From Escherichia phage ECP2303, in the sequence record PP261279.1: a stretch of DNA of 64,000 nucleotides; one strand, written 5' to 3'. A program made the position numbers and the translations under genes. Below, piece by piece: positions 44,140 to 61,527 of the stretch. The notes beneath the pieces are model-generated. The model had not been told where the DNA came from. It worked only from the letters and a program-made list of their open reading frames with translations, and ran no database searches. Every line of letters begins with the position of its first letter. Position 1 is the first letter of the stretch.

Positions 44140-45051
44140 TTATTTTCCGTTAACTTTGTTGTAGTTTCCCTGCTCAGATGGGACTATGGTAGAAGGTCTT
44201 CCATATTCCTGGTAATACCAATCCGCAGCAGATTGGGTAACACCGTTTTCATCTGTCCACATCATAGATTTGTATGGCTGCCACTCTTCTGCAGCATTTG
44301 TGGATGCAGTGTCTGCAAATGCCCCTGTGTCCCTCTTGTTACCTACGTTACTGCCATTCTTACAATCGTTGACAGCACCTTTTTGCTGGGTCTTGCCTAC
44401 TTTCTTAGGGTTGCTGTATACAGTTGCATTAACAACCTTGTTCAAGTAGAATGTGCGGAACTCTGTAAGTTCTACATCAAACACCATCGCAGCACCTTCA
44501 CCAACAGACTTGTTGGCAGAAAGACTGGTTATGATGTAGTTCTCAAGGAGCCTCTCCTCGGTAACCAAAGAAACCAACTGGCGCTTATTAATGATCTCAG
44601 TCAAAGCCTCCAGTGCAGCGCCTGGTCGCATAGATGCTGCAGGGTTTTTAGAGTCAGTATTCCTGTCAATGTAGTTTTGCTCATAGATTATGTGTGGTGA
44701 TGTATTTACCCTACCAGTAAAAGAAAATACACCATCTTTAATTACAGCGTGGTCTGACAGGGTAGATTTATCTTCCACCGCAAAATCAGTCTTATCAACA
44801 GAATGTTTGAAAGAGTAATTCTCAATCTGATCGAAGATGATGGCAAGATCGTTAGTAAAGTTTTTGCCCTTCATCTCCGTATTGCGACCACCATAGTTAA
44901 GACCGCTGACAAACATAGTGTACTTTACATCGCTTTCAGTTTGTTGCTCTGCCTTTTCAGCCTTTGGAGATTTAACCTCTTGAGGCTTGTACAGGTCTTT
45001 TTCATCAACTATATTGCTTGGCATAACCTCTCCAGGACACTCCGATACCAT
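44140..45051 (-). CDS. Tail protein downstream of tape measure (303 aa)
   Basis: First gene after the tape-measure terminator; function from position only. Confidence 0.5.
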   Translation of the reverse strand: MVSECPGEVMPSNIVDEKDLYKPQEVKSPKAEKAEQQTESDVKYTMFVSGLNYGGRNTEMKGKNFTNDLAIIFDQIENYSFKHSVDKTDFAVEDKSTLSDHAVIKDGVFSFTGRVNTSPHIIYEQNYIDRNTDSKNPAASMRPGAALEALTEIINKRQLVSLVTEERLLENYIITSLSANKSVGEGAAMVFDVELTEFRTFYLNKVVNATVYSNPKKVGKTQQKGAVNDCKNGSNVGNKRDTGAFADTASTNAAEEWQPYKSMMWTDENGVTQSAADWYYQEYGRPSTIVPSEQGNYNKVNGK

Positions 45052-45090
45052 CTAAATATTGTATCATAAAATAGCCGTTTTTACAACACC

Positions 45091-45117
45091 GATAAAATAA
45101 AGGGGGCCGGAGCCCCC
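45091..45117 (-). terminator. Intrinsic terminator downstream of the tape-measure gene
   Basis: Minus strand reads GGGGGCUCCGGCCCCC hairpin followed by UUUAUUUUAU. Confidence 0.6.
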
Positions 45118-45130
45118 TGTGTGCTGTTTA

Positions 45131-47470
45131 TTACCAAAGATCTGTTGACATAAAGTTAATATCCTTGTTGTTCTCCCACTCAAGTTTTGCATCAAGTATT
45201 TTGCTAAACTCCCCCTCATCTATTGAAATCGTGATTTTACCATCACTAATCTCTAAAGGGAGCATTTCCATAGTTCTTAATTGAGAAGCAAAACCAGGGC
45301 CACCGGGCAACGGAAGAGTCCCTCCCGGTAAGGTGTCCAAAGGATCAACAAACCCGTTACCTCCAGATATGATATCTTTGCGAATCATATCGCTGATAGT
45401 ATCCAGTTGCTGATTTCTCTCACTCAGTGGGTTGAAACGGTCATTAAATAACTCCCCGGCGCTTAATATTGTACCGATAATACCAAGCTTACCAAGCAGG
45501 CCAACTTTACCACCAGGTGTCTTGAGGCCACCTCCCCCTTTTCCTGCCGCACCACCACCAGATCCTTCTGTGGTAGCTGCACCTGCACCTGCTGCTCCAG
45601 CTGCACCTCTTATAGAACTAAGGAATTTGAAGGTTTTTACAAGCATAGATGCCATGACAAAACCTTTTGTCAGGGCGTTCACTACCAGCATAATGGCAGC
45701 AGCAAACCCTGCCCATTTAGCATAGCTAAAGGTGTCATTAAGCTCTTCAGAATATTCCTTCGTCTTAGCTGTTATGAGTCCCCATTTAATCCCCCATTCA
45801 AGGAAAAACATGCGGATCTTGACTATGGTATTGTTTAGTTCACCAACTACCCAGTTGAGACCTCTCACAAAACCACTAACAAAATCACCAGAGGCATCCC
45901 ACACAAATTGCAAAGTCTCACCAGTGCGAATCAGTGTATAATAGAACTCTGTTAGTTCATCAGCCCAACGGGTGAATAGTTTCTGACGAGACAGTTCAAT
46001 GAAGGTTTTCAGTCTGTTTTCTGCCAGTACGTTAGACTTCTGCATTCTTTCATAACCAGCTGCAGATGCCTCGTTCATGTACTTAGCCACATACTTCATG
46101 ATCTTGGCTGTCTTAACCTCACCTTTCTTCATCATGTCCATGAACTGATCCATGGATAGTTCAGAAAGACCAAAAGCCTCTTTGGTGGCTTTGATAAAAG
46201 GTTCGTATGCACCAGGCAATGCTTCAGCAAGTTGTTGCTTCAGTTCTTCGGACATTACCTGTCCTTTACCGAGCATTTGCTGGATTGCCATGATGCCACG
46301 CTGGTATTTTACCTCATCTGCACCGTAAGCAGCAGCATACTGTGAGTATGCAGAGAATAGCTCATGCACCTCTTGATTTGTCATCTGGTTTTTGGCGTTT
46401 ACCGCCATCTGGGCGTAACCTTGAAGACCAGATTTGAGATCAAAACCAAGACGCATAGCCTCTTGCTGGACAAACGCAACCTCACTGTTGGCTTTGTTTG
46501 GATCTCCAGTAACAGCAGTAAGAGCAGCACTTGCCCCCTCCATCATGTGACCAGATCTGTTCACAGCAGTAAATCCAGAGAAAGCCGTATACGCAGCTGT
46601 TGCATTAATAACAGACCTACGTAAGTCTCTCATGGCATCACCAAGTGTAAGCGTTTGGCTGGTGGCGCTTTTAAATCCAGACTGCAGAGCTGACAGGTGG
46701 GCGTTAAAGGTTGACTTTTTCATCTCTCCGCGAGCAAACCTGGACTCTAACTCTGAGTATCCTGGCAAGCTTCCACGGAATCCGGCCCCATACTTGGCAG
46801 AAAGTCTTATCGCAGAGTTGTAGAGGTGGGTTCTCCTTGCCTCACGATCCGACATAAGCTTATTATCCATACCAGCTTTACTGTCTCTTCTTAGCTGCCT
46901 ATGATAACGATTCATAGCGGCTGTCTGAGCTTTCACAAGGTTAGGGTCGGAAGCCACACCACCCATATTAGGGTTACCTGGGATATACTTGAAAGATTTG
47001 GCATTAGCCAAAACTCTTGCCTTAGGTGCCTTATAACCGCCGTAAGACACTGGTGCAGATTTGGTAGCCTTTTTGGCCTCTTTAGCTTGCTGCTGGTAGA
47101 ACTTACGCATCCTAGCCATTTCTGGATTTTTAGCGGTAAGATTACCCACAGCTTGTTTACGTCTCGCGTTCTCCCTACGTTCTATTGCAGCCCTTACTGC
47201 AGCCTCTTTCTTGGCCTGTGCTACGCTCTCCCTGTGCAGTTTAGCATTTGCCTGATATTGCTGTCTGGCAACCCGCTGCATTGTTTGCTGGGTTTTAACA
47301 GCCACTGCCTGCCATCTACTCATTGGGTTGGCTGAGTTAAAATCCTCGCCCAGTTTCCTGAACTCCCTCCCAATACTGCGAATTTTCTCTACAGCTTTTT
47401 TGTAGGAGGAGTTCTCTATCTCAAAGCCAATCTTGTTGACTGTTGTGGCAACTATTTTGTTTGTAGCCAT
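45131..47470 (-). CDS. Tail tape measure protein
   Basis: 779 aa. Ala/Gln/Lys-rich helical N-terminal part, internal hydrophobic segment, Gly-rich segment (GAAGAAGAGAATTEGSGGGAAGKGGGG). Downstream of the chaperone pair. Confidence 0.8.
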   Translation of the reverse strand: MATNKIVATTVNKIGFEIENSSYKKAVEKIRSIGREFRKLGEDFNSANPMSRWQAVAVKTQQTMQRVARQQYQANAKLHRESVAQAKKEAAVRAAIERRENARRKQAVGNLTAKNPEMARMRKFYQQQAKEAKKATKSAPVSYGGYKAPKARVLANAKSFKYIPGNPNMGGVASDPNLVKAQTAAMNRYHRQLRRDSKAGMDNKLMSDREARRTHLYNSAIRLSAKYGAGFRGSLPGYSELESRFARGEMKKSTFNAHLSALQSGFKSATSQTLTLGDAMRDLRRSVINATAAYTAFSGFTAVNRSGHMMEGASAALTAVTGDPNKANSEVAFVQQEAMRLGFDLKSGLQGYAQMAVNAKNQMTNQEVHELFSAYSQYAAAYGADEVKYQRGIMAIQQMLGKGQVMSEELKQQLAEALPGAYEPFIKATKEAFGLSELSMDQFMDMMKKGEVKTAKIMKYVAKYMNEASAAGYERMQKSNVLAENRLKTFIELSRQKLFTRWADELTEFYYTLIRTGETLQFVWDASGDFVSGFVRGLNWVVGELNNTIVKIRMFFLEWGIKWGLITAKTKEYSEELNDTFSYAKWAGFAAAIMLVVNALTKGFVMASMLVKTFKFLSSIRGAAGAAGAGAATTEGSGGGAAGKGGGGLKTPGGKVGLLGKLGIIGTILSAGELFNDRFNPLSERNQQLDTISDMIRKDIISGGNGFVDPLDTLPGGTLPLPGGPGFASQLRTMEMLPLEISDGKITISIDEGEFSKILDAKLEWENNKDINFMSTDLW

Positions 47471-47488
47471 GCTTTCCTCATAATAAAA

Positions 47489-47520
47489 AGGGCCAGATCC
47501 CAGAAAAGGAATCCGGCCCT
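47489..47520 (-). terminator. Hairpin + U-tract (possible attenuator) between the chaperone ORFs and the tape-measure gene
   Basis: Imperfect 9-bp stem (GGGCCGGAU / AUCUGGCCC) followed by UUUUUAUUAUG on the minus strand. Confidence 0.4.
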
Positions 47521-47524
47521 TAGA

Positions 47525-47773
47525 TTATCCTCTCCTGCGCTTAGCTTTCGCAGCAGCTGCGGCAGCCTTCTGCTCCCGCTCCATTTCCCTGTTTTGGACG
47601 GTATCTAGGAATTCTTCGATATCAAGATACTCACAGAGCTTCAGGAAATACGCCATATCTGCAAGATTTAGCGATTCAAAATTTTCCCCTTTGAAATTCT
47701 TGAGCACCCTGCACCAAAGAAAGTCGAACCAGTTAAGTGAACTGTTCTTAGCTGCCCACTCACTGGCCCTCAC
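47525..47773 (-). CDS. Second tail-chaperone ORF (possible -1 frameshift extension of upstream chaperone)
   Basis: 82-aa ORF in the -1 frame relative to 47785-48258, starting (GTG) 12 nt after its stop. Its frame stays open well upstream of the chaperone stop. Confidence 0.4.
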   Translation of the reverse strand: MRASEWAAKNSSLNWFDFLWCRVLKNFKGENFESLNLADMAYFLKLCEYLDIEEFLDTVQNREMEREQKAAAAAAKAKRRRG

Positions 47774-47784
47774 AACAACCTTGC

Positions 47785-48258
47785 TTATTCCTGCTCTTCC
47801 GGAGTCTGATCCAGATTGTTCACCTGCTGGATCATACCCATCTGCTGTAACATCTCCAGAAGGCTTCCTAAACCGTCTTGTGTGAAAAAACAGCCGTAGT
47901 TAACCTCCAGAACCTTACCTGCCAGCTTAATCATCTCCAGCAGATGCCCTGCAAACACAACATCAGGGTTAAGCTTATCCACACCATCCACGGTAATATC
48001 TTCGAACAAGATTTTAAATAACTCTTCAATAGAGTTATCATCAAGTTCTTGGAACAGGTAAGCTAGGGCTGTAGGAAGGACCTCTGCCATATTCTGACCG
48101 CCTGAGAGAATAGATCCACCGATAGCACCTAGCGGGACAGCCACAATCTTACCGATTTTAGGCATGTTTTTCATTGCTTTCATCGGTCCCCAGTGGGTGA
48201 TCACAAAGTTGTGCCCTGCTAAATCAATCTCTGTTGTAGGTCTAAAGTTTATAGCCAT
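47785..48258 (-). CDS. Tail assembly chaperone (gpG-like position)
   Basis: 157-aa acidic protein between the tube and tape-measure genes. Confidence 0.5.
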   Translation of the reverse strand: MAINFRPTTEIDLAGHNFVITHWGPMKAMKNMPKIGKIVAVPLGAIGGSILSGGQNMAEVLPTALAYLFQELDDNSIEELFKILFEDITVDGVDKLNPDVVFAGHLLEMIKLAGKVLEVNYGCFFTQDGLGSLLEMLQQMGMIQQVNNLDQTPEEQE

Positions 48259-48382
48259 TTTATAGCATCCTTATTAGTCATGTTGTGCACCATATTTGTG
48301 TATTTTACCATGATTACGGTGCATTGTCAATTTAACCTTTCAAGCAACTCAAGAACGTGTGTCAAAACCATAAAAGCAAAAA

Positions 48383-48403
48383 GCCCCACCCGAAGGTGAG
48401 GCC
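48383..48403 (-). terminator. Intrinsic terminator (UUCG tetraloop) downstream of the tube gene
   Basis: Minus strand reads GGCCUCACC-UUCG-GGUGGGGCU followed by UUUUGCUUUUAU. Confidence 0.6.
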
Positions 48404-48420
48404 TATGCTAAAGTGTGCCC

Positions 48421-48894
48421 TTAGATAATACCTGCAAGACCTGCGAGGCCAGTGAGAGCACCAGTGATGTTGTCACGGTTGAGCCATGCATCCAGAATAC
48501 CGATATCCCAGTCCAGCTGACCTACTTCGGTTCCGTAAGTTAGGTCAGGCTGTTTCTGGATCCAACCGATTGTAGCAATGCCAGGGCCCTGGCTACCTTC
48601 CAGCAGAACCGGGAAGAATACCAGACCAGTAATAGATGCCTGTTTCTGCCAGTCAGAAAGGTAAGCGTTCCATACAGAAGTGTTCTGCAAGGATACAGTC
48701 ATAACACCAGATTGGTTACGAGACAGAGCTGCAGACATTTCACCATCCACACCAACGTGAGGGTAGATGTTGTCTTCGTTTCTTGAAACAACGATCTTGG
48801 TGTCAGCAGCGAAGCCAGTGACACGCTGCTGCATCAGATACAGTTTGACCTTTTTAGGGTCATACGCATAAGGAGTTAAAATTTGAGTTTCCAT
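48421..48894 (-). CDS. Tail tube protein (putative)
   Basis: 157 aa, directly downstream of the sheath-sized gene and followed by a terminator. Confidence 0.55.
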   Translation of the reverse strand: METQILTPYAYDPKKVKLYLMQQRVTGFAADTKIVVSRNEDNIYPHVGVDGEMSAALSRNQSGVMTVSLQNTSVWNAYLSDWQKQASITGLVFFPVLLEGSQGPGIATIGWIQKQPDLTYGTEVGQLDWDIGILDAWLNRDNITGALTGLAGLAGII

Positions 48895-48904
48895 CTAGTC
48901 TTCC

Positions 48905-50281
48905 TTATTCAGTCATTGCAACAGCATTGGTGGATTTAGAACCAACTTTGTCCAGAAGGACGTTGATCCGGATACGAACGAAGTGCAGGGCGTTGTTATA
49001 CACCAGTTCTACTTTCACACCTTCCAGAACACGAGCAGCCAACTGATTGGTTGGGATTTCTGCACGTTTAGGAACTGTGATGATCGGGTCGTAGAATACA
49101 TTATTGTCTTCGTCAAAACCTGTCAGGATCGCACCATTTTTAATGCCAGTATTGATCGGGTTGTTCATCAGAACAGACTTGATAACCGGAAGATCATCAT
49201 CAGACATCTTCATGCTTAAGCCCATATTGGAGCGGCGATGCATGTACCCAAACATGGACTCTTCAGATCTGAACTTGATCCAGTGTGCAAAACGGATAGC
49301 GTCTGCATACTGACCTGAAGCACACTTACCTTCCCAGAAAGCGCCAACACCGTTAATCATTCTATAGAAGTTAACGTGGTTTTCCCAAATCGCCATACGC
49401 TGAGTTAAAGTCAGGGATGGTGCAATAACGCCCGGCATCTGTTTTAAATGCAAGCTGTCGCCGTAAGACGGATCGTTGGATGCCATAGCGCCTACGATAC
49501 CACCCTCTGGAAAATCTTTATCCGCACGAGGATCGTACATGCCGACACTATCATATTGTGCAGCCATCAGTTTGGTGGCGATGTTATTTTCTTTGCCAGT
49601 CACATCTTCTGCAGTAGAATAGACATGGAGCTTGTAGTTAGCCTGAGCCCACTTAGCACATGCTTCAATGTCGGTGTGGTCTTCATGGCACAGGAAGTAC
49701 CAATTATCACGCTCAGCATTGATCTTATCAACTACTGTAGAAGGTTTTTCAGAATTGGCGATATTTTTGATTGTATAGTTACCAGTATGATAACCAACAG
49801 TGCAGTCACCAGTGATGGTAATAACACCTTCAGAAGCCTCTACAGTGATATCGTTCAAGTTATCATCTGCTTCGATTTTAGTCTTCATTGATTCTGCAAT
49901 CTGAGTTGCACCTGTTCCACCAGAGATAGGTACTATCAGAGAAGTATTGTAGCCACCTTTTGCAATGGTCATTACGACATCGGTATCAGCTGCGGCAGCA
50001 ATACCTTTAAAATCTACAGTGGTTTTTTCTTTAGCCTGTCTGCCGATCATAACGTATTGTGGAGGGAATACACCGCCGAAAGCTTTTGCTGCAAACTCAT
50101 ACGCTGCAGAGCCTTGTGCGAAACCGTCTTCCACCATCTGGTCCAGCTCCGCATACACGCGAGCTCGCTCAGTAAAGTTGTTGTGGATAGCGATGAACAG
50201 CGGGGTTTCGAAACCTACAGTGTCAATAGGCTGGGTTCCGAGGTTAACTGTAACATCTACCACTTTATCTAAATATGGCAT
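48905..50281 (-). CDS. Tail sheath protein (putative)
   Basis: 458 aa, immediately upstream of the tube-sized gene, in the canonical sheath-tube-chaperone-tape-measure order. Confidence 0.55.
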   Translation of the reverse strand: MPYLDKVVDVTVNLGTQPIDTVGFETPLFIAIHNNFTERARVYAELDQMVEDGFAQGSAAYEFAAKAFGGVFPPQYVMIGRQAKEKTTVDFKGIAAAADTDVVMTIAKGGYNTSLIVPISGGTGATQIAESMKTKIEADDNLNDITVEASEGVITITGDCTVGYHTGNYTIKNIANSEKPSTVVDKINAERDNWYFLCHEDHTDIEACAKWAQANYKLHVYSTAEDVTGKENNIATKLMAAQYDSVGMYDPRADKDFPEGGIVGAMASNDPSYGDSLHLKQMPGVIAPSLTLTQRMAIWENHVNFYRMINGVGAFWEGKCASGQYADAIRFAHWIKFRSEESMFGYMHRRSNMGLSMKMSDDDLPVIKSVLMNNPINTGIKNGAILTGFDEDNNVFYDPIITVPKRAEIPTNQLAARVLEGVKVELVYNNALHFVRIRINVLLDKVGSKSTNAVAMTE

Positions 50282-50353
50282 TTGTTTCCTCTTAATATCT
50301 GTGCACGGATATCAAACACGCAGTGTAATCATTACACTACACAATTATAACGA

Positions 50354-50905
50354 TTACTGACCACTGTCTGTAACCGATTTATCAGAATTGGGTGAAGGGA
50401 AGTGCGTGGTTATTTCAGCCTTAATTCCCTGAAGATCCTCAAAAGCCCCAATGTCTGTCTCAACAAACCTTACGTTAAATGTCAGCATTACCGTGGCTCT
50501 ATTTTCATACGTCTGCTTATTCAACGGCACCCTTTGAGGGGAGATTGTTGAATTGTTAGAGTAAGCAAAGCACGACCCCAGAGGGAAATACTTGTCATAA
50601 AACATTGGAAGATTTATTGCTTGCAATACTCTGCTAAGTGCAGCATGTGCCCTGCCACGATAAGCTGTTAACAGATAGGTAACAGTGTAACTGTGTGTTA
50701 CGTAAGCATTACCCTCCGCATCTTGAAACTCATTATCTTCCCAAGTGGTTGGATTGATCGCCAAGGTTTGTAAAAGTACAAACTCACCTTCCGGCTTCGG
50801 TATGGTAGAGCTTTCTGCCAGAACTACAGTTCTTCCTGTGGCAACCTTGACAAGCTTAGCAATGGTTGTTTCAAGATCAGAAAAAACTTTTTCGAAAGCT
50901 TCCAT
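50354..50905 (-). CDS. Neck/tail completion protein (hypothetical)
   Basis: Position between the head and tail modules. Confidence 0.45.
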   Translation of the reverse strand: MEAFEKVFSDLETTIAKLVKVATGRTVVLAESSTIPKPEGEFVLLQTLAINPTTWEDNEFQDAEGNAYVTHSYTVTYLLTAYRGRAHAALSRVLQAINLPMFYDKYFPLGSCFAYSNNSTISPQRVPLNKQTYENRATVMLTFNVRFVETDIGAFEDLQGIKAEITTHFPSPNSDKSVTDSGQ

Positions 50906-51330
50906 CAGTCTTCTCCTTCAGGCTCTTCTACCACAAAAAATCTATATCTTCCACCACCAGACGTGACATATGCATCGCATTTTAAAACGGTAAACCATTT
51001 CAAGTCACCACGGATGTCAGGCAGCTGAATTTGATCAGCCATTGCATATGTTCCTTCATCTGGACTATACAACTTGGTTGAGGAGTAAACTGTAAAAGCC
51101 TCGTACTGTCTGTCACCTTCGGGATTTATTTGAGAGGAGTAATCTTTAGCTGCCCTTCCTGTCAACGGCTGCACAACACACTCTAAGACATCAAACTCTT
51201 CATACTCAAGTTCTAACCCCTCGTTAGCAAAAGGACCACCAACTGTTTTGTTATACACTCTGTGGCGACCTTTGAATGTTTTGCGGGGTATTAGCCTGTT
51301 CTTTCCTATCAGCTTATAACCTGCTGCCAC
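50905..51330 (-). CDS. Neck/head-tail joining protein (hypothetical)
   Basis: Position; ATGA overlap with its neighbour. Confidence 0.45.
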   Translation of the reverse strand: MAAGYKLIGKNRLIPRKTFKGRHRVYNKTVGGPFANEGLELEYEEFDVLECVVQPLTGRAAKDYSSQINPEGDRQYEAFTVYSSTKLYSPDEGTYAMADQIQLPDIRGDLKWFTVLKCDAYVTSGGGRYRFFVVEEPEGED

Positions 51331-60715: not shown

Positions 60716-60792
60716 TGGTCTCCACGGAGTGATTCGAACACTCGACCTCCTGATCCCAAATCAGGCGCTCTACCAAGCTGAGCTACGCGGAG
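60716..60792 (-). tRNA. tRNA-Pro (anticodon UGG)
   Basis: 77-nt cloverleaf folded by hand: 7-bp acceptor stem (one G-U), D-arm GCTC/GAGC, anticodon loop UUUGGGA, T-loop TTCGAAT, encoded CCA. Confidence 0.8.
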
Positions 60793-60803
60793 TATTTATT
60801 ATT

Positions 60804-60878
60804 TGGTGGCCCTGGGTGGAATTGAACCACCGTCTGGCGATTATGAGTCGCTTGCTTGAACCTTCCAGCTACAGGGCC
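60804..60878 (-). tRNA. tRNA-Met or Ile2 (anticodon CAU)
   Basis: 75 nt. Perfect acceptor stem GGCCCTG/CAGGGCC, T-arm GGTGG-TTCAATT-CCACC, anticodon loop CUCAUAA, CCA encoded. D-arm and the 27-43 pair are imperfect. Confidence 0.6.
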
Positions 60879-60879
60879 A

Positions 60880-60955
60880 TGGTGCTGATGGCAGGACTTG
60901 AACCTGCAACCTATTGATTACAAATCAATTGCACTGACAATTGTGCTACATCAGC
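60880..60955 (-). tRNA. tRNA-Thr (anticodon UGU)
   Basis: 76 nt. Acceptor GCTGATG/CATCAGC, D-arm GCAC/GTGC, anticodon loop UUUGUAA, T-arm GCAGG-TTCAAGT-CCTGC, CCA encoded. Confidence 0.8.
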
Positions 60956-60959
60956 AAAA

Positions 60960-61058
60960 GGTGCTAGGTGATGGAATCGAACCACCTATGTATTCAACGA
61001 CTACCTCGTCTATTTTCAGGATTAAAAATCCTCGCCCTTGCCAAAGGGCTTACCTAGC
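60960..61058 (-). tRNA. Atypical tRNA-like element (possible tRNA-Lys UUU with oversized variable region, or pseudo-tRNA)
   Basis: About 99 nt. Perfect 7-bp acceptor stem GCTAGGT/ACCTAGC, D-arm GCCC/GGGC and T-arm GGTGG-TTCGATT-CCATC. The central 46 nt holds a perfect hairpin AGGATT-TTT-AATCCT (readable as a loop UUUUUAA) plus a further 28 nt. Confidence 0.4.
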
Positions 61059-61156
61059 GCAATATGTTGACCATGTGGCTAGTCGGCGATGACGACTGTA
61101 ACATTTGATAATCCGGTTCTGCTTCCGGCTTTCGCTTAATTACAAGGTCAACAATG

Positions 61157-61247
61157 TGGCGGAGAGTAATGGAATCGAACCATCATCGAGTTATCCTCAA
61201 CGGGACGGTTTTCAAGACCGCTTGAGCACCATTGCTCCCTACCCTCC
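61157..61247 (-). tRNA. tRNA-Ser (anticodon UGA), class II
   Basis: About 91 nt. Acceptor GGAGGGT/ACTCTCC (one G-U), anticodon loop CUUGAAA, long variable arm, T-loop TTCGATT, CCA encoded. Confidence 0.65.
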
Positions 61248-61361
61248 TTTATAAATTACACTGATAATGACACTGATTTTCGAGCAGTTAGTGACTAGTA
61301 TAAACGACGATAAATATCAATGTCATTATCTGTATGATTTATGCATTTAAAAATATAAATT

Positions 61362-61448
61362 TGGTGGGGAGTGGTGGAGTCGAACCACCCGAGTCGCAAT
61401 GACAATAGATTTACAGTCTACACCGCTACCTCTACGGGATAACTCCCC
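61362..61448 (-). tRNA. tRNA-Tyr (anticodon GUA), class II
   Basis: About 87 nt. Acceptor GGGGAGT/ACTCCCC, anticodon loop CUGUAAA, long variable arm, T-arm GGTGG-TTCGACT-CCACC, CCA encoded. Confidence 0.65.
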
Positions 61449-61452
61449 AATT

Positions 61453-61527
61453 TGGCACCCCGTACTGGACTCGAACCAGTGTCAACGGCTTAGAAGGCCG
61501 CTGCTTTATCCACTAAGCTAACAGGGC
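61453..61527 (-). tRNA. tRNA-Arg (anticodon UCU)
   Basis: 75 nt. Acceptor GCCCTGT/ACGGGGT (two G-U), D-arm GCTT/AAGC, anticodon loop CUUCUAA, T-arm ACTGG-TTCGAGT-CCAGT, CCA encoded. Confidence 0.8.

What the first reader, a model, noticed from the sequence alone, without database searches (positions are those of the whole stretch)
47525..48258. Possible programmed -1 frameshift joining the two tail-chaperone ORFs
The 82-aa ORF is in the -1 frame relative to the 157-aa chaperone ORF, and its frame stays open for at least 25 codons upstream of the chaperone stop. This is the arrangement that produces gpG and gpGT in many tailed phages. I could not identify a canonical XXXYYYZ slippery heptamer with confidence; GGTTTAG near the 3' end of the first ORF is only semi-slippery.
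Basis: inference. Interest (0 to 1): 0.4.

Follow-up and report, generated by a model that had tools for sequence, protein, structure and literature searches.

The report
Tail chaperone G/GT −1 frameshift site
This rV5-like coliphage very probably makes a short and a long tail-assembly chaperone from one mRNA by ribosomes slipping back one base at a conserved TTTTTTC; this is the textbook phage gpG/gpGT trick, real here but not annotated in any of the roughly 20 related GenBank records I inspected.

Summary
The window is a Vequintavirus (rV5-like) coliphage. On the minus strand the gene order is sheath, tube, 157-aa chaperone (Pfam Phage_TAC_15), 82-aa ORF, tape measure.

- **Frame.** The small ORF is in the −1 frame, which stays open for 115 nt (38 codons) inside the chaperone gene.
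- **Slip site.** It sits exactly in X_XXY_YYZ register. GGTTTAG is out of register and not conserved.
- **Conservation.** The heptamer is invariant in 27/27 distinct sequence contexts from about 50 related loci (chaperone identity down to 28%). The codon supplying its first T changes amino acid (Cys/Pro/Ser) but always ends in T.
- **Other motifs.** More distant relatives carry G_GGA_AAG or A_AAT_TTT at about the same place.
- **Dual coding.** Synonymous variation drops from about 0.5 to 0.13–0.20 at and just after the site.
- **No independent start.** Several relatives have no start codon ahead of the conserved downstream domain.

The predicted products are G (157 aa, 17.3 kDa) and GT (244 aa, 27.1 kDa). 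I found no conserved 3′ RNA structure. An SD-like GGAGG lies 13 nt upstream and is only partly conserved.

The verdict is a new, unannotated member of a well-known kind. Nothing is experimentally shown here.

The parts
47785..48258 (-). Gene G: 157-aa (17.3 kDa) tail assembly chaperone, the zero-frame product. Stop TAA at 47787..47785.
   Evidence: ORF list. Pfam PF21822 Phage_TAC_15 at E=1.1e-23, 84.5 bits against a cut-off of 22. PHROG 3840 'tail assembly chaperone' at 6e-69. Mass.
47884..47890 (-). Slippery heptamer T_TTT_TTC in X_XXY_YYZ register of G (codons TGT TTT TTC = Cys123-Phe124-Phe125). This is the proposed −1 slip site.
   Evidence: Invariant in 27/27 unique contexts from about 50 related loci. 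The preceding codon is TGT, CCT or AGT (always NNT), while flanking codons vary synonymously.
47525..47884 (-). T segment: 119 codons read in the −1 frame after the slip (HTRRFRKPSG…KAKRRRG), then stop TAA at 47527..47525. It has a conserved RFR(K/R)P motif, a Gly/Ser-rich variable linker, a conserved helical domain of about 80 aa and a basic tail.
   Evidence: alignment A3. PHROG 10409, unknown function. No Pfam family at E≤1.
47525..48258 (-). Predicted fusion CDS GT = complement(join(47884..48258, 47525..47884)), with base 47884 read twice. 244 aa, 27.1 kDa. Junction tryptic peptide VLEVNYGCFFHTR.
   Evidence: This is an inference; the product has not been observed.
47785..47899 (-). 115-nt stretch where both the zero frame (G C-terminus) and the −1 frame are open. 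The part downstream of the heptamer is dual-coding.
   Evidence: G-frame synonymous difference rate is 0.13–0.20 around and after the slip against about 0.5 upstream. T-frame rate is 0.1–0.3 inside the overlap against about 0.55 beyond it.
47900..47902 (-). −1-frame stop codon TAA, 3 codons upstream of the heptamer. It marks the 5′ limit of any possible shift.
   Evidence: Judged from the aligned codons, TAA or TGA falls at the same place in many relatives.
47903..47908 (-). Internal Shine-Dalgarno-like GGAGGT. The GGAGG core ends 13 nt 5′ of the heptamer. It is a candidate 5′ stimulator of the −1 shift.
   Evidence: Predicted duplex with the 16S 3′ end is −10.0 kcal/mol. An SD-like element with an 11–13 nt spacer occurs in most lineages but not all. 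The stimulatory role is inferred.
47771..47773 (-). GTG start that gene callers use for the 82-aa ORF. It has a weak AAGG 5 nt upstream (47782..47779).
   Evidence: This start is not conserved outside the genus. In Klebsiella, Erwinia and Certrevirus relatives the first start codon lies 63–83 codons after the slip site.
48302..48330 (-). Sigma-70-like promoter (TTGACA-17-TAAAAT with an upstream TG) just ahead of G.
   Evidence: 11/12 match. The rV5 RefSeq record annotates a promoter P51 at the same place.
47488..47521 (-). Intrinsic-terminator-like hairpin plus T-run between the T-segment stop and the tape-measure gene.
   Evidence: Annotated as a Rho-independent terminator in rV5.
48381..48404 (-). 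Terminator-like hairpin between the tube gene and the G promoter.
45131..47470 (-). Tape measure protein gene (779 aa), the presumed client of G and GT.
   Evidence: Pfam TMP_3 at 4e-18. PHROG 5255.
48421..48894 (-). Tail tube protein gene (157 aa), the presumed partner of the T domain.
   Evidence: Pfam KPP10_Orf10 at 4e-9. Identified as the tail tube protein gp52 in the rV5 paper.

Best explanation
The G–T pair is a gpG/gpGT-type tail assembly chaperone gene expressed by programmed −1 ribosomal frameshifting.

**Proposed mechanism (inferred).** Most ribosomes translate G to its stop and make a 157-aa chaperone. A small fraction slip when tRNA-Phe occupies both the P site (UUU) and the A site (UUC) on U_UUU_UUC (47890..47884). 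Both tRNAs re-pair one base back on UUU UUU. Translation then continues in the −1 frame for 119 more codons and yields a 244-aa GT fusion. The likely fraction is between 0.1% and a few percent.

**Proposed function (by analogy with lambda G/GT and P2 E/E+E′).** The shared G part binds the tape measure protein, and the T domain recruits the tube protein. Neither product ends up in the virion. The fixed low ratio is set by the slip frequency.

**The signal.** It appears to be essentially the bare heptamer, possibly helped by an SD-like GGAGG 13 nt upstream. There is no conserved 3′ structure.

**Shown here:** the sequence anatomy, its conservation and the dual coding. **Inferred:** the slip itself, its efficiency and the protein partners.
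For: 1. **Synteny.** The order is sheath, tube, TAC, small ORF, TMP. G is Pfam Phage_TAC_15. The order is the same in all 19 annotated relatives inspected.
2. **In-register heptamer.** T_TTT_TTC sits in X_XXY_YYZ register with the −1 frame open through it to the end of the small ORF.
3. **Invariance across divergence.** The heptamer is unchanged in 27/27 distinct contexts spanning Vequintavirus, Seunavirus, Henunavirus, Avunavirus, Certrevirus, Phapecoctavirus, Justusliebigvirus, Plateaulakevirus and IMG/VR contigs. G identity in these runs from 28% to 57%. The X-supplying codon is Cys TGT, Pro CCT or Ser AGT, so three amino acids all end in T. Phe1 is always TTT and Phe2 always TTC. Neighbouring codons vary synonymously (TAC 20 / TAT 7, GGC/GGA/GGT, GAG/GAA). 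An Ounavirinae phage also has it in register.
4. **Different slippery heptamers nearby.** Rheinheimera Barbavirus has G_GGA_AAG three codons downstream. Vibrio qdvp001 has A_AAT_TTT. This points to selection for slipperiness rather than for Phe-Phe.
5. **Dual-coding signature in two clades**.
6. **Conservation starts at the slip site.** T-frame conservation begins immediately after it (RFR(K/R)P). Several relatives have no ATG/GTG/TTG until 63–83 codons later, inside the conserved domain. An exhaustive HMMER search finds T homologues called only as ragged ORFs of 43–102 aa.
7. **The motif is a known shifter.** U_UU.U_UU.C is frameshift-prone in E. coli (>0.1% without stimulators), under-represented in E. 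coli genes and used by IS elements (PMC4066793).
8. **Sister families.** A conserved −1 PRF at a GTTTTT motif has been proposed for the TAC locus of Vandenendeviridae and Andersonviridae, described as relatives of Vequintavirinae (PMC12846349).
9. **Uniqueness.** This is the only such configuration in the 64-kb window, and the codon-shuffle estimate is about 0.006.
Against: - No experimental evidence for the fusion exists for this phage group in the literature I could search. The rV5 paper does not mention it.
- None of the roughly 20 GenBank records inspected annotates a joined CDS.
- No significant or conserved downstream stimulatory RNA structure was found (z-scores −1.45 to +1.5, RNAalifold gave 0 pairs). 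Efficiency may therefore be very low.
- In this genus a GTG with a weak AAGG lies just past the G stop, so some independent initiation cannot be excluded.
- 36 of the comparison loci were retrieved with a peptide pattern that contains FF. The amino-acid conservation there is partly by selection, although the codon choice is not.
- No natural single-ORF G–T fusion was found.
Confidence: 0.85

Rival explanations
1. The same GT fusion is made, but by transcriptional slippage. RNA polymerase adds one extra U on the T6 run, so a subset of mRNAs encodes GT in a single frame. The protein would be identical (…CFFHTRR…).
For: The site is a homopolymer (T6). More distant relatives keep a T5–T6 run in a different codon register: Pseudomonas Kremar reads GTT TTT CAG and Acinetobacter Ab15 reads GAT GTT TTT TCC. 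That looks register-independent. No 3′ RNA stimulator was found.
Against: Bacterial transcriptional slippage is described for runs of about 9 A or T (PMC5009743), and T6 is short. Homologous loci with G_GGA_AAG (Barbavirus) and A_AAT_TTT (Vibrio) fit the tandem-tRNA rule but are not slippage-prone runs. The Kremar and Ab15 sites still place a U_UUU tetramer in register, and U_UU.Y is the second most shift-prone tetramer class in E. coli (PMC4066793).
Confidence: 0.05
2. There are two separate proteins. The 82-aa ORF is translated independently from GTG 47773 (weak AAGG RBS, possibly by re-initiation after the G stop 12 nt upstream), and no fusion is made. The long open −1 frame is incidental.
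For: A GTG with AAGG 5 nt upstream lies 11 nt after the G stop. All GenBank and IMG gene calls treat it as a separate ORF.
Against: The start is not conserved. Klebsiella K54_rec2 has no start codon until codon 83 of 126, Erwinia until codon 67, and POP15 and PBES02 until codon 63, all inside the conserved domain. The −1 frame upstream of the GTG is conserved at protein level (RFR(K/R)P, ISKVV) and suppresses synonymous change in G. The heptamer's codon-level invariance would be left unexplained.
Confidence: 0.05
3. It is an artefact or pseudogene. G and T would be a single ORF broken by a homopolymer sequencing error (T6 instead of T7) or by a recent frameshift mutation.
For: Homopolymer runs are classic indel-error sites.
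Against: The same T6 and the same two-frame layout occur in more than 100 independently sequenced Vequintavirus genomes and in distant genera. The zero-frame C-terminus of G after the heptamer is itself conserved (alignment A2), and both frames show constraint.
Confidence: 0.01

Closest known systems
Phage lambda gpG/gpGT (Levin, Hendrix & Casjens 1993; Xu, Hendrix & Duda 2004, 2013, 2014; summarised in PMC5009743)
   Same: Two overlapping ORFs sit between the major tail/tube gene and the tape-measure gene. [quoted passage not shown] The products are an abundant short chaperone and a rare long fusion that shares its N-terminus. The rV5 virion proteome as searched does not list either product.
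   Different: The heptamer is U_UUU_UUC rather than G_GGA_AAG. The slip site lies 103 nt before the G stop, against a mean of about 36 nt quoted for the Xu et al. phage set. This is a contractile-tailed phage. G belongs to Pfam Phage_TAC_15, and the T segment matches no Pfam family, including lambda-type T. The efficiency is unmeasured.
Phage P2 gpE / gpE+E′ (Christie et al. 2002; from my own knowledge, the paper was not held)
   Same: It is the myovirus version of the G/GT system. The overlapping chaperone ORFs lie between the tube and tape-measure genes and a −1 shift occurs on a T-rich heptamer.
   Different: I detected no sequence similarity. P2-type efficiency is reported to be 2–3-fold higher than lambda's (PMC5009743). 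I could not verify the exact P2 heptamer here.
Proposed −1 PRF at the TAC locus of Vandenendeviridae (Pakpunavirus Adele) and Andersonviridae (Felix O1-like, Moogle) (PMC12846349, Dec 2025)
   Same: The tail module is related, the layout is the same (TAC-N plus a downstream 'hypothetical' ORF in the −1 frame), and a conserved poly-T motif (GTTTTT) lies near the 3′ end of TAC-N. The argument is also comparative only. I confirmed T_TTT_TTC in register in an Ounavirinae phage.
   Different: That paper's locus analysis covers Vandenendeviridae and Andersonviridae, not Vequintavirinae or Stephanstirmvirinae. In Vequintavirinae the site is a full canonical heptamer in register. In the Pseudomonas phage Kremar and Acinetobacter Ab15 relatives that I checked, only a U_UUU tetramer is in register.
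E. coli dnaX −1 frameshift signal (heptamer plus 5′ SD plus 3′ hairpin; PMC5009743)
   Same: A tandem-slippage heptamer with an SD-like sequence upstream. Here that is GGAGG with a 13-nt spacer and a predicted −10 kcal/mol duplex.
   Different: There is no 3′ hairpin. The heptamer is less shift-prone than A_AAA_AAG. The expected efficiency is a few percent or less rather than about 50%. The SD-like element is not universally conserved.

Membership tests
gpG/gpGT-type frameshifted tail assembly chaperones (Xu, Hendrix & Duda 2004) | The gene pair lies between the major tail/tube gene and the tape-measure gene. | tested here: met
   Order tube (48894..48421), G, T, TMP (47470..45131). The order is the same in all relatives inspected.
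gpG/gpGT-type frameshifted tail assembly chaperones (Xu, Hendrix & Duda 2004) | The downstream ORF overlaps the 3′ end of the upstream ORF in the −1 frame and lacks a credible conserved start of its own. | tested here: met
   115-nt overlap in the −1 frame. Start codons are absent or ragged in relatives. A weak GTG/AAGG exists in this genus only.
gpG/gpGT-type frameshifted tail assembly chaperones (Xu, Hendrix & Duda 2004) | A slippery sequence (X_XXY_YYZ) lies in zero-frame register inside the overlap. | tested here: met
   T_TTT_TTC at 47890..47884, with its first T at codon position 3.
gpG/gpGT-type frameshifted tail assembly chaperones (Xu, Hendrix & Duda 2004) | The arrangement is conserved among relatives despite sequence divergence. 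| tested here: met
   27/27 unique contexts keep the heptamer. Alternative heptamers appear in Barbavirus and a Vibrio phage. Dual-coding signature is present.
gpG/gpGT-type frameshifted tail assembly chaperones (Xu, Hendrix & Duda 2004) | A fusion protein is actually produced at a low fixed ratio and is required for tail assembly. | not testable with these tools
   This needs Western blot or mass spectrometry and genetics. No such data turned up in the literature searches.
gpG/gpGT-type frameshifted tail assembly chaperones (Xu, Hendrix & Duda 2004) | Neither product is present in mature virions. | tested here: inconclusive
   The rV5 virion proteome text lists gp49, gp52 and gp53 but not gp50 or gp51. 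The held supplements contain no gp50 or gp51 entry. Absence of a mention is weak evidence.
Pfam PF21822 Phage_TAC_15 | The score is above the family's gathering threshold. | tested here: met
   84.5 bits against a cut-off of 22, E=1.1e-23, residues 15–129.
Lambda-type T domain (Pfam family for minor tail protein T) | The −1 segment is similar in sequence to the family profile. | tested here: not met
   No Pfam family at E≤1 for the 119-aa T segment. The only match is PHROG 10409, 'unknown function'. The segment is therefore analogous, not demonstrably homologous.
dnaX/IS-type stimulated −1 PRF signals | A stimulatory 3′ hairpin or pseudoknot lies 5–9 nt downstream of the heptamer. | tested here: not met
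   The MFE z-score is −1.45 (94 nt) and −0.71 (80 nt) in the window. Nine relatives give −1.0 to +1.5. RNAalifold predicts 0 pairs. Rfam gives nothing.
dnaX/IS-type stimulated −1 PRF signals | An SD-like sequence lies about 10–14 nt upstream of the heptamer (this spacing range is from my own knowledge). | tested here: inconclusive
   GGAGG is present 13 nt upstream in the window (−10 kcal/mol). It is present with an 11–13 nt spacer in most lineages, displaced to 17–20 nt in the Klebsiella and Certrevirus lineages, and absent in the Aeromonas and Hafnia phages. The sequence is confounded by the Leu-Glu-Val coding.
Programmed transcriptional slippage sites | A long homopolymeric A or T run (about 9 in the bacterial examples). 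| tested here: not met
   The run is only T6. The criterion comes from PMC5009743.

The most novel reading that the evidence does not exclude
The slip signal of this whole tail-module supergroup (Vequintavirinae, Stephanstirmvirinae-like, Ounavirinae and Pseudomonas, Acinetobacter and Vibrio relatives) may be a minimal, structure-free poly-U site. Its activity would depend on something other than a 3′ RNA element. Candidates are a relocatable 5′ SD-like stimulator, the conserved upstream Asn-Tyr-Gly nascent peptide or codons, or a contribution from RNA-polymerase slippage on the T run. In the last case G:GT stoichiometry would be set partly at the level of transcription.
Probability: 0.1. Interest if true: 0.4.

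Novelty: new member of a known kind. Interest (0 to 1): 0.25.

Why it matters
Vequintaviruses (rV5, FV3, phi92 relatives, PVP-SE1) are widely used as therapy and biocontrol phages, and well over a hundred of their genomes are public. None of the records I inspected annotates the GT fusion. The −1 segment appears as a 'hypothetical protein' with arbitrary starts. In RefSeq rV5 it begins at a CTG codon placed just before TTT TTT.

Recognising the T_TTT_TTC site gives three practical things:
- a correct joined CDS for the whole subfamily;
- a defined, testable frameshift cassette that works without a 3′ structure in E. coli;
- a handle for engineering tail assembly.

Biologically it extends the Xu–Hendrix–Duda rule to one more large myovirus lineage. 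It does not reveal anything new in kind.

Tried and rejected
- **GGTTTAG as the slip site.** Rejected. It is out of register and not conserved.
- **Downstream hairpin or pseudoknot.** Single-sequence folds in 10 lineages and RNAalifold found nothing significant or conserved. Rfam gave only a sub-threshold GcvB chance hit.
- **Natural single-ORF G–T fusions ('Rosetta stone').** The word-indexed search gave 3 short hits. The exhaustive HMMER search gave 17 hits. The clear homologues are ORFs of 43–102 aa. A few long proteins (737–1311 aa) match weakly in several stretches and look unrelated. No fusion was found.
- **Solved structures.** No PDB sequence relative of GT at E≤1.
- **AlphaFold2 single-sequence model of GT.** Unusable, with mean pLDDT 38.7 and pTM 0.23. 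No fold search was attempted.
- **Deeper alignment for modelling.** I ran no further search on this, because the fold would not bear on the frameshift question.
- **Literature.** No paper on a frameshift in rV5, Vequintavirus, PVP-SE1, phi92 or phAPEC8 was found. The P2 frameshift paper was not held.
- **Sequencing-error explanation.** Rejected on comparative grounds.
- **Phage-encoded tRNA-Phe that might tune the shift.** None is present in the window.
Full report
**Identity of the window.** Bases 45000–51000 are 100% identical to Escherichia phage ECP2309 and 96–99% identical to more than 100 Vequintavirus (rV5-like) coliphages. All relevant genes are on the minus strand:
- tail sheath, 50281..48905;
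- tail tube, 48894..48421;
- a 157-aa ORF, 48258..47785;
- an 82-aa ORF, 47773..47525;
- a 779-aa tape measure protein, 47470..45131.

Pfam assigns the 157-aa protein to Phage_TAC_15 (E=1e-23). It assigns the flanking genes to DUF3383 (sheath), KPP10_Orf10 (tube) and TMP_3, and PHROGs agrees. The small ORF matches only PHROG 10409, 'unknown function'.

**The observation.** The small ORF is in the −1 frame relative to the chaperone (G).

T_TTT_TTC lies at 47890..47884, with its first T at the third position of a G codon (TGT TTT TTC, Cys-Phe-Phe). That is exactly the X_XXY_YYZ register.

Slipping at T_TTT_TTC predicts a 244-aa, 27.1-kDa fusion. It consists of G residues 1–125 followed by HTRRFRKPSG…KAKRRRG. 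The unshifted product is 157 aa and 17.3 kDa.

**Is it more than chance?** ORFs of at least 120 aa in the window hold 21,913 codons and 38 in-register heptamers with Y = A/T. Only this one leads into a −1 extension of at least 30 aa that passes the zero-frame stop. In codon shuffles of G, the combination of an open −1 frame and an in-register heptamer arises in 0.6% of trials. The comparative evidence is much stronger than this single-sequence estimate.

**Comparative evidence: layout and heptamer.** I fetched the homologous locus from 13 annotated phages of other genera, with G identity of 28–55%. They are PVP-SE1, Erwinia pEa_SNUABM_55, Klebsiella K54_rec2, 18-1-2, POP15, PBES 02, A5-4, phAPEC8, Eryne, FKP3, Aeromonas 4L372XY and Rheinheimera Barba5A, plus rV5 and HeinrichReichert. 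I also fetched 36 IMG/VR contigs.

Every locus has the same layout, with the −1 frame open from just before the slip site to the end of the small ORF. Across 27 distinct 69-nt contexts the heptamer is invariant:
- Phe1 is TTT in 27/27 and Phe2 is TTC in 27/27.
- The preceding codon is Cys TGT (16), Pro CCT (10) or Ser AGT (1). The amino acid changes but the third base is always T.
- Adjacent codons vary synonymously (TAC 20 / TAT 7; GGC/GGA/GGT; GAG 19 / GAA 5; four Val codons).

One caveat applies. The IMG/VR loci were retrieved with a peptide pattern that includes FF. Conservation of Phe-Phe there is therefore partly by construction, but the codon choice is not.

**Comparative evidence: other slippery motifs.**
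- Rheinheimera Barbavirus lacks the T run and has lambda's own G_GGA_AAG, in register, three codons downstream in the alignment.
- Vibrio qdvp001 has A_AAT_TTT.
- A Hafnia Ounavirinae phage has T_TTT_TTC in register.
- Stephanstirmvirinae-like phages have two overlapping in-register heptamers, C_CCT_TTT and T_TTT_TTC.

Replacement of one slippery heptamer by a different one at about the same place argues for selection on slipperiness itself.

**Dual coding.** In codon alignments of 17 Vequintavirinae-like G genes, I measured how often identical amino acids are encoded by different codons. The fraction is about 0.5 along the gene. It falls to 0.13–0.20 in the 10-codon windows that contain and follow the heptamer (0.31 over the whole overlap against 0.51 upstream). 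In the T frame it is 0.1–0.3 inside the overlap and rises to about 0.55 once the G stop is passed. A second clade of 9 Stephanstirmvirinae-like sequences behaves the same way.

Protein alignment of the −1 segment shows conservation starting directly after the slip site. The order is an RFR(K/R)P motif, a variable Gly/Ser-rich linker, and a conserved domain (A..YA.KNSSL.W.DYL…LNEYLD).

**Independent initiation.** In this genus a GTG (47773) with a weak AAGG 5 nt upstream follows the G stop. In Klebsiella K54_rec2 the first ATG/GTG/TTG in the −1 frame is at codon 83 of 126. In the Erwinia phage it is at codon 67, and in POP15 and PBES 02 at codon 63. All of these lie well inside the conserved domain.

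Gene callers therefore give this ORF ragged N-termini. An exhaustive HMMER search of 1.84 billion representatives returns homologues of only 43–102 aa that begin anywhere between query residues 23 and 79. RefSeq rV5 annotates gp050 from a CTG codon placed immediately before TTT TTT. The conserved T domain cannot be made by independent initiation in those phages.

**Stimulatory elements.**
- No downstream structure stands out. The window's MFE z-score is −1.45 (94 nt) and −0.71 (80 nt), and nine other lineages give −1.0 to +1.5. RNAalifold predicts no conserved pairs, and Rfam finds nothing.
- Upstream, GGAGGT (47908..47903) can pair with the 16S 3′ end at a predicted −10 kcal/mol. The GGAGG core ends 13 nt before the heptamer.
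- An SD-like element with an 11–13 nt spacer is present in most lineages. It sits 17–20 nt away in the Klebsiella and Certrevirus lineages and is absent in the Aeromonas and Hafnia phages.
- This element is confounded with the Leu-Glu-Val coding, so I list it only as a candidate stimulator.

Published data show that U_UU.U_UU.C shifts at more than 0.1% in E. coli without any stimulator, is under-represented in E. coli genes and is used by IS elements. U_UU.Y is the second most shift-prone A-site tetramer class (PMC4066793). A low-level shift suits a G:GT system. In lambda the ratio is about 30:1 (PMC5009743).

**Transcription context.** The G–T pair has its own sigma-70-like promoter (48330..48302, 11/12 match with an extended −10 TG). 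It is flanked by terminator-like hairpins at 48404..48381 and 47521..47488. The rV5 record annotates the same promoter and the terminator downstream of the pair.

**Mechanism and rivals.** The best explanation is programmed −1 ribosomal frameshifting by tandem tRNA-Phe slippage on U_UUU_UUC (confidence 0.85). It would give G and GT, which act as in lambda and P2. G would bind the tape measure and the T domain would recruit tube protein. These functions are inferred by analogy.
- **Transcriptional slippage on the T6 run.** It would give an identical protein. In its favour, more distant relatives keep a T5–T6 run in a different codon register (Pseudomonas Kremar, Acinetobacter Ab15). Against it, T6 is well below the runs of about 9 documented for bacteria. 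The Barbavirus and Vibrio motifs are not homopolymers. The Kremar and Ab15 sites still offer an in-register U_UUU tetramer. Confidence 0.05.
- **Independent translation of the small ORF.** Confidence 0.05.
- **Sequencing error.** Confidence 0.01.

Both of the last two are contradicted by the comparative data above.

**Comparison with what is known.** This is the arrangement described by Xu, Hendrix and Duda (2004) for long-tailed phages. Its closest published relative is the comparative argument of December 2025 for a −1 PRF at a GTTTTT motif in the TAC locus of Vandenendeviridae and Andersonviridae, which that paper describes as relatives of Vequintavirinae (PMC12846349).

I found no paper that reports it for Vequintavirinae. 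None of the roughly 20 records inspected has a joined CDS. The T segment is not a member of any Pfam family, so it is analogous to lambda gpT rather than demonstrably homologous. The rV5 virion proteome as reported lists the tape measure, tube and sheath proteins but not gp50 or gp51. That is compatible with chaperones that leave the particle, but it is weak evidence.

**What failed.** A single-sequence AlphaFold2 model of GT was unusable (pLDDT 38.7). No PDB relative was found, and no natural G–T fusion was found.

**Verdict.** The slip site is now pinned to T_TTT_TTC at 47890..47884. It is an ordinary but unannotated example of a well-known recoding device, so I class it as a new member of a known kind with low to moderate interest (0.25). 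Its value lies mainly in annotation and as a clean, structure-free −1 frameshift cassette for E. coli.

Noticed in passing
Public records MG065666.1, MG065674.1 and MG065639.1 (hits H28, H35, H74, H92): Unannotated records named 'Campylobacter phage A12a/A140/A150' (host C. jejuni) are 98–99% identical in the chaperone and tube proteins to E. coli Vequintavirus or phi92-like phages. They are probably mislabelled or contaminant genomes.
   Followed up: no
window 60960..61058 (−), within the tRNA cluster 60716..61527: ARAGORN reports seven tRNA genes (Pro, Met, Thr, Ser, Tyr, Arg). One is a 99-nt 'tRNA-???' with a four-base anticodon (atcc). The rV5 paper counts six tRNAs. This could be a pseudo-tRNA, an intron-containing tRNA or a caller artefact.
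   Followed up: no
L001 3608..3976 (rV5 RefSeq NC_011041.1, rv5_gp050): RefSeq rV5 annotates the −1 ORF as a 122-aa protein that starts at a CTG codon immediately before TTT TTT and overlaps gp051 by 109 nt. This looks like an annotation workaround for the long open −1 frame.
   Followed up: yes
L012 1818..1824; L054 3193..3199; L053 about 3575; L055 about 4338; L056 2908..3156: Distant relatives with the same synteny use other recoding layouts. Barbavirus has G_GGA_AAG and Vibrio qdvp001 has A_AAT_TTT. Pseudomonas Kremar (T5) and Acinetobacter Ab15 (T6) carry the T run in a different codon register, so only a U_UUU tetramer is in register. In Bacillus phage Sam112 the downstream chaperone ORF is in the +1 frame with a 32-nt overlap and no heptamer.
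   Followed up: partly
L010 1872..1881, L013, L014 and IMG/VR loci L034, L037–L051: Stephanstirmvirinae-like phages (phAPEC8, phi92-like) carry two overlapping in-register heptamers, C_CCT_TTT and T_TTT_TTC (CCCTTTTTTC). This is a possible double slip site.
   Followed up: no
window 47488..47521, 48302..48330 and 48381..48404 (−): The chaperone pair is bracketed by terminator-like hairpins and has its own strong sigma-70-like promoter. It therefore looks like a separate transcription unit between the tube and tape-measure genes (also annotated in rV5).
   Followed up: partly
window 47891..47911 (−), codons −7 to −1 before the heptamer: Synonymous variation is already reduced a few codons upstream of the slip site (Asn AAC 25/26, Gly GGC 22/25), where the −1 frame is not translated. 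From the aligned codons, a −1-frame TAA or TGA sits 3 codons before the heptamer in many lineages. This may be part of the signal (SD-like element, E-site context or nascent peptide).
   Followed up: partly
window 47884..48020 (−): There is a sub-threshold Rfam match to GcvB (18.6 bits against a gathering score of 42, E=0.15). I regard it as chance.
   Followed up: no
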